Source of the DNA: Kipferlia bialata
Lineage: Eukaryota
Assembly (NCBI GenBank): GCA_003568945.1
Contig: BDIP01000011.1
Location: 1 to 48,396 of the forward strand
Direction: 5' to 3'
DNA: 48,396 nt
Under the pieces are notes generated by a model. That model saw only the letters and a program-made list of their open reading frames with translations, made no database searches and was not told where the DNA came from. The number at the start of each line of letters is the position of its first letter. Within the stretch, counting starts at the first letter, position 1. This document shows, in pieces, positions 8,970 through 19,734 of this stretch. Made by a program: the position numbers and the translations under genes.

Positions 8970-11900
8970 ATGAAGAGAGCTCTTCAGAGAGCTTGTCAGG
9001 TCATTGTTTGTGGTTTCCGATCAACGTGTCAGATTCCGACTTGCCTCACTCCCTCTCTTGTCAATCCCCCAACTGGACCGACCGGTACACACCCACTAGT
9101 AACCGAGCCCCAGACCACCCTGATTCCCCACCCCCATCGATGGAACCCCCTATGTCGGTGTGGGTGACGGGTGCCGTGCCTATAGAGGAGATCGAGCCAG
9201 GTGACACACAACCACTATATGCACCCTATTTGTATACTCACTCGCCCTCAGTGCAGGGGGGGGCTCCCCTAATGATGCTGATGTAGTGTTTGTGAACATT
9301 AGTGGGTTGGGTGTGGTCCTATAGTGGTGTATATATCAGTATTGGAGCTGTGATCATTTCTACGGGGTGATGGTCTAGTCATTCTGTTCTTCCGACTCGG
9401 GTACCAGGCACTGCATGTGTCGAATGTCTGACGCCAGGGGAGGACAGCACTCCCTAAGAACATCCACCAACACTTACCCCCCCCCCCCCCCCCCCCCCCC
9501 CCCCACCCCCCCCCCCCCCCTGTCCCCTCCCCCCCCCCCCCCCCCCGCCCCCCTTCGCCTCCCTCTCTCTCCTCATTCCTATATTCATACTGATTCCACT
9601 CCTCTGCCCCACCTTATCCACCCAGGTACTCCCTCTGTCTCTCTCTTCACACATGTGTTCAGTGGTTCGTACTCCCCTCCTCTCCCCCTTTCCCACCCCC
9701 AGGCTTCTCTGGGTCTGCTGGTAACCTCTCCCCCTATGTATATATACCCTATATACTTAGTTTATTTAGGTGACTTATTCCAGGCTTCTCTGGCTCTGCT
9801 GGTAACCTCTATGTCACGATGGACAGAGCAGTGCTATCAGTGGATAGTAGGTGTGCATTAGTATATGAATGTATACTATTACTATATATGCATGTGTTGG
9901 ATATATATAGATGTCACGATGGACAGAGCAGTGCTATCAGTGGACAGTAGGTACAACTCTTTGTATGCTTATGTTTGATATTGTATATATACAGAGAGAA
10001 CGGGAGGTAGATATATGGCACGATGGACAGGGCAGTGCTATCAGTGGACAGTAGGTATCACTATAGATATGTATGTGTACTTATGCAGGGAGAGAGAGAG
10101 AGAGAGAGAGAGTGGTGTCACGATGGATAAAGCAGTGCTGTCAGTGGATAGCAGGTATCATCTCCCTCTCTCTCCCTATCTCCCTATCTCTCTCCCTCTC
10201 TCTCTCTCTCTACGTGTGTGTATATATTGTCTCTCCCTCCGGATGCTGTCCTTCATGCCATCAAGAATCTCTCTCTCTCTCCTGACCCCAGATACCACAT
10301 CCAGGCCTCAGAGGAGACAAACGCAACACTGGGTAAAATGGGATTACCTTTAGTAGAGCGGCATTCTCTATATCTGAGTTATAGTACTTCTTTTCATAAC
10401 TGTAGTATACCCATATTTTTATAGTATATATATTCTAGAAATATATATATCATATTCTATATATATATACTATCTACTAATGCCAGTACATTCTGCCAAG
10501 GAGGGAATCAAACAAACACTACTCTCCTTATCTCTCTCTTGTGTGGAATATATATATATGACTAATTATATACTATTTTTCTGGCCCCCAGTATGTGTTG
10601 CCAAGTAGGGCACCCATTCCAGTCAACCTGCTTTACATGAATAGTATATATATCCATTAATATACACTATACCTGACTACTTTCAATATATATACATACC
10701 TTATACACCATCGAATAACCCCCAGTGCATGTTGCCAAGGAGGGCACCCAGCCAGGGCAGTGCAAGAGGTTCCACAAGGCACTCACAGGTAAATATATAT
10801 ATATGTATGTATATATATATGTATGTTTGTGTATGTTTAGTGTAATTGGATGCAGTGCAAGAGGTTCCACAAGGCACTCCAGGTACATTCATACTATTAA
10901 TACTATTAATACTATTCATACTATTAATACTATTAGTAGTAATATATAAAAGGTACTGTCAGGTAGTTACACATATATGAATCAACATGTATCTATATAT
11001 ACTAACCCTAGGCCTAGTTGAGTCTGAGCCCGAGTCCTCTGAAGCCTGGAGGATAGGTGTCTATGAGACACAGTACGCAGTGTCATCACTCAACACGTGG
11101 AGGAGGTATGTAATAGATTTGTATGTATATATATACATGTAAATATGTCTCAAGAAGGAGGAGGTATGGATATATAAATATATATATATATTCATTGATA
11201 TAGATACTTACTAACCTCAGGTCCTTTGAGCGCTCCCTCCACCCCACCTCCATCTGTCTGAGTGGGGAGGGGGAGGAGGAGAGCATAGACATCCAGGTGT
11301 GTACATAGATATGCGCACATATGATTATTAGATGGATATATAGACAGTGGAGAGGGGAGAGGGGGAGTAGGTGAGCATATACATACAGTTACGTAGATGT
11401 GTATATGTGTAGTATACAATACATGTCACATATATATATTCACTTACCCCCAGGCCCCTGCTCCTGAGTCTGAGTCCTCTGACCATCATACACTATATAC
11501 TTACTATATATGTATATTTGTATATATATGATATCTCTAACTCTCTCTGATGCCTAGGCCCCTGCCCCTGAGTCTGAGTCCTCTGAGTCCCTCTATAATT
11601 ATCATTCTAGTAACTATACTGAGAGCCATTGGAGTAGTCTTAGTCTCATACTTAGGCCCCTGCCCCTGAGTCTGAGTCCTCCGACCCAGATGACACAGAG
11701 GGCACACGGCCGGTGTGCTTTGTGCTCATTCCAGGTATGGACGGTCTCAGTGTTGATCGAGTGGAACTAACGTAATCACAATACCTCGTATCTTCCTCTA
11801 TATATCTATGTATCGAATGGAACTAACGTAATCACAATACATCGTATCTTCCTCTCTAGCTTCCTCTATATATCTATGTATGTCCCCTCTATACATGCAT

Positions 11901-12894
11901 GTATATCTAAATAAATAGAAGTGTTCACTTCAGGTGTCATTGAGACCCACTTCCCTGTGCATGTCTCTCTCTCTCTCTTTCTTTGCCACTGGTGACACAC
12001 AGATGACACCCCCATGGAGAGTGCCACTGGCACTGACAGGCACATCAACAGCAGGTGTGTAGGATGTTTTTTTGAATATAGAAGTATTTAAATACAGTAA
12101 ATATGTGATAACTTCCCCATTGAGAGTGCCTCTTGGCCTATCGGGCATATCCACAGCAGGTATGTAGACAAACCTGTGTTATATATGAGTGATATAGTAT
12201 GTTTGACAGCGTACCTTGTGTCTGTCTATACACACTGACCCCAGAACGTCTCAGCAGCAGGTACAAGTATAAATTTTTTTTCATACAAGTATATATATTT
12301 ATTCATATTCATATATCCATCATATACACTGACCTCAGACCGTCTCAATCTGCTAGCCGAGCAGTTGGTTGCCAACCAGATATGTAGTATGATAGAGGCA
12401 GAGAGGGAGGAGGGGGTTGATGGGGATCCAACAACCCTAAGGTATATATATATATATATATATATGAGTGTGCCTATGCTCTATGATAGAGGCAGAGAGG
12501 GAGGAGGGGGTGGCGGGAGACCCATCTACTCTGAGGTATTCCTATATGAATAGTATATATAGGAGCATATATCTACAATTTTGGATGAGAGTCAATAGTA
12601 TAACTAGGAGTCTTCATATTCAAGTGTGATACTGATGCTGATCTATTTGTTTGTCTGACTCCAGATATGTCACCTTCAATGCCTGTGAGATCAGCTGGCT
12701 GCTGAACCTGAGGGCCAAGGTATTTACATTCAATGTCTTACATAGTGTGTAGTGTTTTCAGAGCATACATATACATGCCTTACTATATGCTGGCTGCTGA
12801 AGTTGAGGACCAGGTCTCTCCACTTCTCTCTAGATAAATCTCTATCTTTCTCCAGGTCTATGACACCACATCCTCTGTCCCAGATGCCCTTGTG

Positions 12895-19400: not shown

Positions 19401-19734
19401 TAGAGCCACTCTTACAGGTTGAGTGCATACATAGTATATGCACACTGATAAAGATTTTATATGAATATATATGCATACCATGCCAGGGTCAGAGCTGCCC
19501 TAGAGCCACTCTTACAGGTATAGATATCATAGATATTGACACTGCACTACATAGAGTTGGTATGGAAGCAATATAGGTATTTCTATTAATATACCATGAT
19601 CCTACCGTAGTTTTATTGTTTGCTAGTGCACAGAGACTTGTCTTCTATTGTTACATTTCCTCACCCACTAGGACGAGTCTGATGCCGCTGCCCTGGACCT
19701 TCTACTCAGACAGACGGCCCCAGTGCTAGTGTAG
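8970..19734 (+). CDS. Xaa-Pro aminopeptidase (aminopeptidase P, peptidase M24B, XPNPEP1-like), many exons
   Basis: Ordered exon motifs: GFSGSAG..LSVDSR|YHIQA, EISWLLNLRA, RDGVAWLR, SFEAIV|GFGPNGALVHH, LIDCGGQFE|AATTDTTR, FGHGTGHTVQP|GLAVHGG, VSVEPGCY, WGIRHE, LTMVPFD, ELAWLNAYH. Stop TAG at 19732-19734. The metal ligands D, D, H, E, E are all present. The start is tentative (ATG 8970 or 9140). Confidence 0.92.
9477..9553. repeat. Interrupted poly-C run in an aminopeptidase P intron
   Basis: About 75 nt, almost all C, starting directly after CACTTA. Confidence 0.9.
9811..10155 (+). repeat. Exon-echo array: 4 copies of the exon 3' end VTMDRAVLSVDSR plus GT donor
   Basis: Copies at 9811, 9911, 10015 and 10115, separated by dissimilar TA/GA-rich filler. 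Confidence 0.9.
13706..14392 (+). repeat. Exon-echo array: 6 copies of VDPAALSVSAAR plus GT donor
   Basis: GTGGACCCTGCTGCCCTGAGTGTCAGTGCAGCCAGGT-like units at 13706, 13833, 14001, 14120, 14240 and 14356. Confidence 0.95.
13918..13932. other. Assembly gap (N run)
   Basis: 15 N inside a (TA)n tract. Confidence 0.98.
15978..16000. other. Assembly gap (N run)
   Basis: 23 N, with the same ~30 nt on both flanks. Confidence 0.98.
17714..18105 (+). repeat. Exon-echo array: 4 copies of AG acceptor plus GLAVHGGHL(GI)
   Basis: Copies at 17714, 17829, 17952 and 18071. Only the last continues into the complete exon. Confidence 0.92.
19127..19520 (+). repeat. Exon-echo array: 4 copies of AYH..VR.ALEPLLQ plus GT donor
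   Basis: Copies at 19127, 19229, 19373 and 19473. The fillers share ACACTGATA...TATGAATAT. Confidence 0.92.

What the first reader, a model, noticed from the sequence alone, without database searches (positions are those of the whole stretch)
9701..19520. Intronic exon echoes differ from the real exon almost only at synonymous sites
Seen: I hand-aligned 16 partial copies in the aminopeptidase P gene to their complete exons and counted about 35 synonymous versus about 5 non-synonymous codon changes (copies are not independent). Examples: 17714 GTA CAT..CTA vs 18071 GTG CAC..CTC; 15891 (G)GC..AAC..CAC CAT vs 16043 (G)GT..AAT..CAT CAC; 14120 AGC..GCT GCT vs 13706 AGT..GCA GCC; 16195 ATC..GGA vs 16111 ATA..GGG. 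Many amino-acid changes are conservative (R>K; at 17247 L>M, I>M, E>D). Established: a dead duplicate should accumulate at least as many replacement as silent differences, plus frameshifts. Inference: these half-exons diverged while under protein-coding selection. Candidate explanations: (a) they are fragments of other alleles captured by out-of-register recombination, so introns archive allelic variants; (b) they still reach the mRNA through repeat-to-repeat removal at the DNA or RNA level; (c) haplotypes were mis-stacked by the assembler. I know of no description of (a) or (b) at this density.
Basis: partly seen in the sequence, partly recalled or inferred. Interest (0 to 1): 0.9.

Follow-up and report, generated by a model that had tools for sequence, protein, structure and literature searches.

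The report
Introns stacked with old allele halves
In a free-living anaerobic protist, most introns of two long genes hold stacked half-copies of the neighbouring exon that are spliced out yet differ from it mainly at silent positions, so they are likely leftovers of other working alleles, probably left behind when chromosome breaks were repaired on a divergent partner chromosome.

Summary
The echoes are real. A blind search finds 38 in the aminopeptidase P gene and 101 more in two other genes of the window; 135 of 139 follow one rule (5' half plus acceptor upstream, 3' half plus donor downstream). Pooled dN/dS is still 0.18 (bootstrap 0.14-0.25) against 0.51-0.59 for simulated dead copies; echo versus echo it is 0.22. 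DNA contigs carry echoes and exons in cis at flank depth, and a spliced contig uses whole exons and skips echoes, so mis-stacked haplotypes and routine translation are not supported. Exon and nearest echo have equally long silent branches; farther echoes carry more decay; the intron stubs are nearly unalignable. Best reading (inferred): a break in an exon is repaired by one-sided copying from a divergent allele, then end-joined, pushing the resident half into the intron. The species is reported to lack Ku70 and Rad51A and to keep Dmc1, Pol theta and Spo11. This needs silent allele divergence near 0.20-0.26, at the eukaryote record; no second strain was available to test it.

The parts
9784..19734 (+). 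Aminopeptidase P (M24) gene, 26 exons: 9784-9850, 10292-10332, 10726-10788, 11012-11105, 11221-11296, 11656-11734, 11934-12054, 12339-12441, 12665-12719, 12965-13036, 13350-13415, 13536-13601, 13661-13740, 14507-14569, 14780-14836, 15302-15379, 15663-15724, 16043-16141, 16351-16399, 17078-17166, 17490-17582, 18073-18146, 18595-18705, 18784-18893, 19054-19171, 19672-19734; 5' exons not in the window
   Evidence: (AG/GT ends, open frame, lengths match the spliced contig: 263 and 124 nt)
9703..9729 (+). 5'-half echo of exon 1 with acceptor
   Evidence: lies in a DNA contig of depth 241
9911..10154 (+). three 3'-half echoes of exon 1 with donors (9911-9950, 10014-10054, 10116-10154), divergence rising outward
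   Evidence: skipped by RNA joint 9850>10292
10487..10616 (+). two 5'-half echoes of exon 3 (10487-10515, decayed; 10596-10616 with a stop codon)
   Evidence: skipped by RNA joint 10332>10726
10852..10888 (+). 3'-half echo of exon 3, 1-nt deletion before its donor
11352..11388 (+). decayed 3'-half echo of exon 5 (donor lost, stop codon)
11454..11587 (+). two 5'-half echoes of exon 6 (11454-11484, 11558-11587)
   Evidence: one DNA contig 10841-11959 at depth 434; RNA joint 11296>11656
12107..12159 (+). 3'-half echo of exon 7, 7 silent and 6 replacement changes
12475..12535 (+). 3'-part echo of exon 8 (61 nt)
12789..12899 (+). 3' echo of exon 9 (12789-12812, frameshifted) then 5' echo of exon 10 (12856-12899)
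13088..13271 (+). 3' echo of exon 10 (13088-13131; 3 silent, 0 replacement) then 5' echo of exon 11 (13251-13271, identical)
13828..14390 (+). five stacked 3'-half echoes of exon 13 (13828, 13998, 14120, 14235, 14351), 5 versions among 6 sequences; N gap at 13918-13932
   Evidence: only the last one is inside a listed DNA contig piece
14905..14939 (+). 3'-half echo of exon 15
15186..15462 (+). 5' echo (15186-15222) and 3' echo (15435-15462; 5 silent, 0 replacement) of exon 16
   Evidence: DNA contig 14356-15560 at depth 422
15805..16225 (+). two 5' echoes (15805-15836, 15893-15929) and one 3' echo (16195-16225, donor lost) of exon 18
   Evidence: not covered by the read lay
16478..16726 (+). 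three 3' echoes of exon 19 (16478-16495, 16603-16634, 16689-16726)
   Evidence: not covered by the read lay
16964..17418 (+). 5' echo (16964-16984) and 3' echo (17248-17298) of exon 20; 5' echo of exon 21 (17381-17418)
17627..17985 (+). four 5' echoes of exon 22 (17627-17652 most diverged and farthest, 17716-17747, 17831-17855, 17954-17985)
18219..18517 (+). two 3' echoes of exon 22 (18219-18262, 18330-18372); 5' echo of exon 23 (18483-18517, identical, flank unrelated)
19227..19517 (+). three 3' echoes of exon 25 sharing several variants against the exon
24395..48049 (-). long W-rich repeat gene (69 modelled exons, 2022 aa without stop; SFI1-like by recall only) with 95 echoes of the same kind
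   Evidence: model is computational plus hand curation, not RNA-checked
21924..23644 (-). small five-exon gene with 6 detected echoes

Best explanation
The echoes are spliced-out half-exons that likely come from other, formerly working alleles of the same gene, probably displaced into the intron when a break inside the exon was repaired by one-sided copying from a divergent partner chromosome. Steps: (1, inferred) a break falls in an exon; between divergent alleles only exons are still alike, so one end invades the partner's exon; (2, inferred) it copies the partner's half-exon, the splice site and about 50-90 nt of the partner's intron, finds no second homology and is end-joined to the other broken end; (3, shown as geometry) the result is a whole exon, an intron stub, then the old half with its old splice site and intron; a left-end event leaves a 3' echo downstream, a right-end event a 5' echo upstream; (4, shown) splicing uses the whole exon; (5, inferred) each new event inserts beside the exon, so echoes stack by age and then decay slowly. 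Silent differences mostly record divergence between working alleles (about 0.20-0.26), replacement differences mostly record decay since displacement (about 0.03-0.06).
For: dN/dS 0.184 over 139 echoes, bootstrap over 70 exons 0.137-0.245 against 0.51-0.59 for dead copies run through the same detector; an allele-plus-short-decay simulation gave pS 0.246, pN 0.054, dN/dS 0.19. Echo versus echo 0.217 over 52 pairs. In 31 triplets, changes private to exon, nearest and farthest copy are 19:2, 18:10 and 33:26 silent:replacement: the nearest echo has a silent branch as long as the exon's, so the versions form a bush of working sequences, and decay rises outward. Single-base silent changes are balanced GC>AT 73, AT>GC 67, replacement ones 42 and 16. 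Polarity 135 of 139; donor echoes precede acceptor echoes in 26 of 26 introns with both. Intron flanks are 0.58 identical to the exon's flank, unrelated 0.55, and 0.59 even for 22 echoes identical to the exon, while only 3 frameshifts lie in 120 echoes. Each echo adds 97-119 nt to its intron. In cis at flank depth and spliced out. The published repair inventory lists for K. bialata no Ku70 and no Rad51A, but four Dmc1 gene models, Pol theta and Spo11 (PMC8516963 Supplementary Data 2); Dmc1 stabilises mismatched joints (PMC6719624 abstract).
Against: No second allele was seen: no relative above 36% identity in protein searches and none in two metagenome scans. The needed silent divergence (0.20-0.26) equals or exceeds the 0.20 reported as extraordinary in Schizophyllum (PMC4576712 abstract). 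The DNA run shows no variant rows in exons and long contigs at one depth, so this culture gives no sign of divergent homologs here (contigs drop variants). Sex or parasex has not been observed in Metamonada (PMC8516963). Junction microhomology is only weakly enriched (P=0.037). Nearest echo is less diverged than farthest in only 17 of 26 untied groups (P=0.17). A few stacked units have near-identical stubs (up to 0.98 of 44 pairs), so plain tandem duplication also occurs.
Confidence: 0.5

Rival explanations
1. Echoes arise as ordinary same-chromosome tandem duplications and become allele archives later, because out-of-register crossing-over or conversion with other alleles' exons refreshes and multiplies them, or because the exon is later replaced by another allele. 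Same allele pool, different birth.
For: Explains low dN/dS equally; some units share stubs (mean 0.73 against 0.67 unrelated, top 0.98); one four-gamete pair in the five-echo stack; 22 echoes identical to their exon beside unrelated flanks fit recent conversion.
Against: Most stubs are at background similarity; exchange between alleles with unalignable introns would tend to end in exons and so remove or carry echoes rather than uncouple them (inference); decay ordered outward.
Confidence: 0.27
2. The donors were homeologs or paralogs (past hybridisation or genome duplication), not alleles of one population.
For: Would supply 0.2-0.3 silent divergence without record diversity; k-mer peaks suggested a diploid genome for the species (PMC5874029).
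Against: Two parents give two versions, yet 17 of 31 groups have 3 or more and one has 5; silent divergence is only mildly over-dispersed (1.28), not bimodal; no paralog in protein searches and no variant rows from DNA or RNA contigs at 90% likeness.
Confidence: 0.08
3. Echoes are kept in frame because they act as silent donors that are copied back into the exon, as in pilin or antigen cassettes.
For: Coding capacity and splice dinucleotides are kept (125 of 137 in register); replacement changes are more conservative than random (50% against 28% with positive BLOSUM62).
Against: Copying frequent enough to purge replacements would also erase silent differences of 0.3 (inference); stops and frameshifts are tolerated; targets include a housekeeping peptidase.
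Confidence: 0.06
4. Echoes reach the mRNA by alternative splicing or repeat-to-repeat removal in RNA or DNA.
For: Echo splice sites are nearly as strong as true ones (acceptors 6.6 against 7.1, donors 5.6 against 6.5); one echo in the long gene (29455-29411) has both AG and GT.
Against: The spliced contig joins complete exons and has the exon's letter at 36 of 36 diagnostic positions; bins over three echo stacks have no RNA depth; the listed DNA joints (15 of 22 shown) remove no echo unit; each echo lacks one splice site.
Confidence: 0.05
5. The copies are haplotypes mis-stacked by the assembler.
For: Short-read assembly with a proven local slip at 11968 and two N gaps; one DNA contig joint goes back from 14047 to 13701, and one contig (9563-9840) is at half depth.
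Against: 12 of 22 echoes in 9001-15560 lie inside listed single contigs with no other letters in the echoes, 11 of them at depth 418-443 against 451 in the flank (only 8 DNA pieces were listed); more versions than a diploid can hold; strict polarity; stop codons and frameshifts in echoes.
Confidence: 0.03

Closest known systems
[quoted passage not shown] 2009, PMC2671141; abstract and breakpoint section read)
   Same: Short local duplications made by imperfect break repair, which can copy exon parts and splice sites.
   Different: There about 824 events in a whole human genome, from a nearby same-chromosome donor; here 139 in three genes, always anchored on a splice site, with a signature of a different working version as source.
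One-sided invasion followed by end joining (Belmaaza and Chartrand 1994, seen only as a citation in PMC4888836; mechanism recalled)
   Same: One end copies a homologous template, the other is joined without homology; predicts the observed geometry.
   Different: Known from reporter assays; no search here found it described as a routine, genome-shaping process between alleles.
Internal gene duplication and intron gain by tandem duplication (Gao and Lynch 2009, recalled; PMC3265369 and PMC4974935 seen as search listings)
   Same: Part-exon, part-intron duplicates inside genes.
   Different: Those create new introns or exons or decay neutrally; here no new splice junction is used and dN/dS is 0.18.
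Human F7 intron 7 minisatellite with silent 5' pseudo-sites (PMC1557585, abstract)
   Same: Repeated exon-end plus donor units downstream of the true donor stay unused.
   Different: Near-identical 37-bp repeats at one locus; here units are about 104 nt, have unrelated stubs, occur at acceptors too and are spread over most introns.
Silent cassettes for gene conversion (Neisseria pilS, Borrelia vls, trypanosome VSG, chicken pseudo-V; recalled)
   Same: Unexpressed partial copies that keep coding capacity.
   Different: Those serve one variable surface or antibody gene by programmed conversion; here ordinary genes, no transfer shown.

Membership tests
Repair-mediated proximal duplication (SDSA) | copy lies within 5 kb of its source, same chromosome | tested here: met
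   splice-site spacing of units median 104 nt, IQR 95-117; in cis on single contigs
Repair-mediated proximal duplication (SDSA) | copy is taken from the neighbouring sequence itself (identical at birth, then neutral) | tested here: not met
   dN/dS 0.18 against 0.51-0.59 simulated; flanks at background identity
Repair-mediated proximal duplication (SDSA) | microhomology or filler at the junction | tested here: inconclusive
   broken ends slightly more intron-like than random breaks, P=0.037, n=133; no empty-site allele to define the junction
Mutually exclusive tandem exon duplicates | each copy has both splice sites | tested here: not met
   135 of 139 reach one exon end only; 2 reach both, 2 neither
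Mutually exclusive tandem exon duplicates | both copies occur in mRNA | tested here: not met
   one spliced contig, exon letters at 36 of 36 diagnostic positions; rare isoforms not visible in contigs
Intron gain by tandem duplication | duplicated AG/GT splices out one copy so that the echo becomes exon | tested here: not met
   RNA joints and lengths fit complete exons from 9784 to 15379
Silent conversion cassettes | partial unexpressed copies with conserved coding capacity | tested here: met
Silent conversion cassettes | directed transfer into an expressed variable gene | not testable with these tools
   needs clonal lines or several isolates; targets here are ordinary genes
Programmed DNA elimination between repeats (ciliate type, recalled) | DNA molecules lacking the unit exist in the cell | tested here: inconclusive
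   no listed DNA joint removes an echo unit and depth equals flank, but 7 of 22 joints were not shown and contigs drop rare forms
Aminopeptidase P (M24) | Peptidase_M24 and M24_C domains above Pfam cut-offs | tested here: met
   109.8 and 45.2 bits

The most novel reading that the evidence does not exclude
Kipferlia routinely swaps half-exons with strains about 20-26% divergent at silent sites through Dmc1-led one-sided repair and Pol theta joining, so roughly half of the intron DNA in echo-rich genes is an age-ordered archive of past alleles: one genome would record record-level diversity and frequent genetic exchange in a lineage where sex has never been seen, and archived halves could return to the exon by collapse of the repeat.
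Probability: 0.35. Interest if true: 0.92.

Novelty: new variant of a known kind. Interest (0 to 1): 0.76.

Why it matters
If right, it is a way for introns to grow that is driven by recombination between divergent alleles, it gives population-genetic data (diversity, selection per exon, order of events) from a single genome, and it is indirect evidence for genetic exchange in free-living metamonads. It also ties a visible genome pattern to the unusual fornicate repair kit (no Ku, no Rad51A, several Dmc1, Pol theta). Strong unused splice sites in most introns make the species a natural test of how its reduced spliceosome picks exon ends. Practically, echoes mislead gene finders and break short-read assemblies.

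Tried and rejected
No whole genome is held, so the count is limited to this window. No RNA holder is on record; run X2 is RNA by guess only, though it gave a spliced GT-AG contig; X1 may be the sample the window was built from and X1 and X2 are one sample, so they are an independent assembly, not an independent strain. Reads were laid on 9001-15560 only; 15561-19734 and the minus-strand genes have no read check. RNA bins without cover are not used alone as evidence. Protein searches and two metagenome scans found no second strain or paralog; these blanks are weak. Lack of pS-pN correlation (rho 0.06) is not used as evidence, because same-age dead copies also gave rho -0.05. A fixed-length ruler for the unit was considered and rejected (sd 16.7 against 18.9 if echo and stub were independent). 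A ladder in which each echo is the former state of one lineage, with an error-prone recopied exon, was rejected because nearer echoes carry many private silent changes. Decay of full exon duplicates was rejected by polarity. Four-gamete tests had little power (1 pair in 7 groups). An apparent in-frame 12-nt length difference at echo 15435 was seen by eye and not recovered by the gapped search, so it is not counted. One search used a wrong phase for one exon of the small gene; one search corrected it (0.185 to 0.184). Dropped before counting: hits under score 15 or of low complexity (5 further echoes were read by hand, plus one hand register that was wrong; none is in the totals), 4 automatic 'exons' that were echoes, and 3 exons of the long gene and 2 of the small gene skipped as queries. 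Two exons of the long gene gave no SFI1 hit in Pfam. Our earlier findings held nothing on this genome, this protein or the full word set.
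Full report
What the window is. The sequence shows short GC-rich exons in AT- and microsatellite-rich GT-AG introns. 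A search with one exon returned a single protein, P0001, named by its source as a hypothetical protein of Kipferlia bialata on a 48396-base contig; Pfam places it in Peptidase_M24 and M24_C. No whole genome is held. I built a 26-exon model by hand. A 1932-nt spliced contig of run X2 (RNA by guess) confirms it from 9784 to 15379: GT-AG joints 9850>10292, 10332>10726, 11105>11221, 11296>11656 and 11734>11934, and the unlisted gaps have the predicted lengths of 263 and 124 nt. Both runs show 16 extra letters in the window at 11968, an assembly slip that made the public model skip exon 7.

Observation. A DNA-only search of each exon against its two flanking introns (threshold 15; 1.7% of 600 non-adjacent pairs reach it, the top ones through GA/CT repeats, which a complexity filter then removes) found 38 echoes in this gene: 440 codons, 108 silent and 53 replacement differences, pS 0.296, pN 0.055, dN/dS 0.15. 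The proper null is a dead copy beside an exon that drifts at silent sites (43% silent); counting each variant once gives 64%, P=7e-7.

Beyond the gene. A model of the long minus-strand gene (69 exons, 2022 aa without stop, not RNA-checked) gave 95 echoes, dN/dS 0.26 untrimmed; a small gene gave 6; the Na/H exchanger gene only 2 in 26 exons and the gene at 6.3-9 kb none in 7. Those two lie in the GC-richer part of the window; the exchanger's introns have fewer TA repeats. Pooled over 139 echoes with two codons trimmed at the broken end: dS 0.316, dN 0.058, dN/dS 0.184, bootstrap over 70 exons 0.137-0.245. Dead copies simulated through the same detector gave 0.51-0.59; alleles 0.25 apart plus a short dead time gave 0.19.

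Anatomy. 135 of 139 echoes obey one rule: upstream copies start at the exon's start, downstream copies end at its end; the splice dinucleotide is kept in register in 125 of 137. In 26 of 26 introns with both kinds, donor echoes come first, so no AG-to-GT pseudo-exon forms between them. Echoes average 34 nt, shorter than uniform breaks predict. Units (echo plus stub) have median 104 nt, and no stub is under 30 nt, only 4 of 133 under 40. Each echo adds 97-119 nt to its intron; 66 of 93 introns in the two long genes hold one. Stubs and flanks are close to unrelated: 0.58 against 0.55 background, 0.59 for 22 echoes identical to their exon, with some residual kinship (mean z 0.6; same-stack stubs 0.73 against 0.67).

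Are they in the chromosome and in the message? On 9001-15560, DNA contigs of run X1 at depth 413-443 (flank 451) span echoes and exons together with no other letters in the echoes; 12 of the 22 echoes there lie within the 8 listed DNA pieces, one of them in a piece at depth 241 (285 pieces were not shown; two echoes begin 1-5 nt before the listed piece). The five-echo stack at 13.8-14.4 kb contains an N gap and one ambiguous backward joint, so only its last unit is checked. A diploid cannot supply the 3 or more versions in 17 of 31 groups. The spliced contig carries the exon's letter at 36 of 36 positions where 10 echoes differ. Contigs drop rare forms, and both runs are one sample.

Whose sequence is it? 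Echo versus echo, where both copies are now non-coding, dN/dS is 0.217 over 52 pairs. In 31 exon/nearest/farthest triplets the private changes are 19 silent:2 replacement on the exon, 18:10 on the nearest echo and 33:26 on the farthest. The nearest echo thus has its own silent branch as long as the exon's, which a copy dead from birth cannot have and a single-lineage ladder does not predict; decay grows outward. Silent single-base changes are balanced in direction (73 and 67) while replacement ones lean GC>AT (42 and 16; P=0.011; opportunity ratios are 1.7 and 1.4). Replacements are more conservative than random (50% against 28%), yet stops occur at about the neutral share (3 of 77; 4.1% expected), so they are a mix of tolerated allelic change and later decay. 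Splitting the clocks gives a dead time of 0.03-0.06 and a working silent divergence of 0.20-0.26.

Mechanism (inferred). If alleles are this divergent and their introns unalignable, a broken end can pair only in exons. One end invading the partner's exon, copying through the splice site into the intron, and then being end-joined to the other end gives exactly the observed order, leaves the resident half as the echo beside a stub from another allele, and stacks echoes by age. PMC8516963 (passages, one section and a supplement search) reports no NHEJ in metamonads and loss of Rad51A in fornicates; its Supplementary Data 2 lists for K. bialata four Dmc1 models, Pol theta and Spo11, and no Ku70 or Rad51A (one supplement file was unreadable). 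Dmc1 stabilises mismatched joints (PMC6719624, abstract). Why stubs are seldom under 50 nt, about the shortest intron size here (52 nt), is unexplained; selection on splice-site choice is a guess. The main rival keeps the allele pool but has echoes born as ordinary duplications and refreshed by out-of-register exchange; one genome cannot separate the two. Together I put the allele-archive reading at about 0.77.

Against. No second allele or paralog was found; the implied diversity is at or above 0.20 in Schizophyllum and 0.16 in C. brenneri (PMC4576712, abstract); this culture shows no exon variants in contigs; sex has not been observed in Metamonada; microhomology and the outward gradient of total differences are weak.

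Known systems and novelty. Closest are repair-mediated proximal duplications (PMC2671141, abstract and breakpoint section), one-sided invasion (citation seen in PMC4888836; otherwise recalled), internal duplication and tandem-duplication intron gain (listings; Gao and Lynch recalled) and the silent pseudo-donors of F7 (PMC1557585, abstract). The species' genome paper (parts 1-3 of 6 read and a whole-text term search; supplements not opened) has no occurrence of 'duplicat', 'allel' or 'heterozyg' and notes only k-mer peaks suggesting diploidy; PMC6679479 (passages) covers only its spliceosome. Searches found no description of stacked, selection-marked half-exons; the library lacks most subscription papers. 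Verdict: a real and dense feature, a new variant of repair-made local duplication, with its source and mechanism inferred.

Noticed in passing
window 11961-11983: The window has 16 extra letters and one changed letter in a CT repeat inside exon 7; DNA and RNA contigs both show the shorter form. The public protein skips this exon.
   Followed up: yes
window 9465-9783: The spliced contig runs about 160 nt further 5' than exon 1, and a 21-letter piece of that part is absent from the window. A long C run and a step in GC from 52% to about 40% lie here: possible misjoin or lost exons. The public N-terminus taken from about 9140 is probably wrong.
   Followed up: partly
window 776-5770 and 6328-8790: The Na/H exchanger gene (2 echoes, 26 modelled exons) and the minus-strand gene next to it (0 echoes, 7 modelled exons) lie in GC-richer DNA; the exchanger has shorter, less TA-rich introns. 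Echo density is regional or gene-specific.
   Followed up: partly
window 24395-48049, minus strand: Long gene with tryptophans often 22-23, 29 or 33 residues apart; SFI1-like by recall, no Pfam support from two exons; 5' end beyond the window.
   Followed up: partly
window 39520-39608: One exon of the long gene seems split by a 42-nt intron-like in-frame insert between overlapping halves, with no splice sites: a possible event caught without a full exon, or a misassembly.
   Followed up: no
window 29411-29455: An echo with both AG and GT (45 nt, frame-preserving): a candidate alternative exon.
   Followed up: no
all echo units: Echo splice sites score almost as high as true ones (26 of 58 acceptors and 24 of 63 donors equal or stronger) yet are skipped where RNA was checked, which points to recognition across the exon.
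   Followed up: partly
window 21749-21818, also near 19990-20060 and 21495-21520: tRNA-like fragments in the intergenic stretch; ARAGORN finds no tRNA; a sub-threshold tRNA-like Rfam match at 21749-21818. Possibly a tRNA-derived repeat.
   Followed up: partly
window 18073-18100: The motif region that reads HEGP in typical aminopeptidases P (recalled) reads HGGH here, and best homologs are only 28-37% identical: the enzyme is divergent.
   Followed up: no
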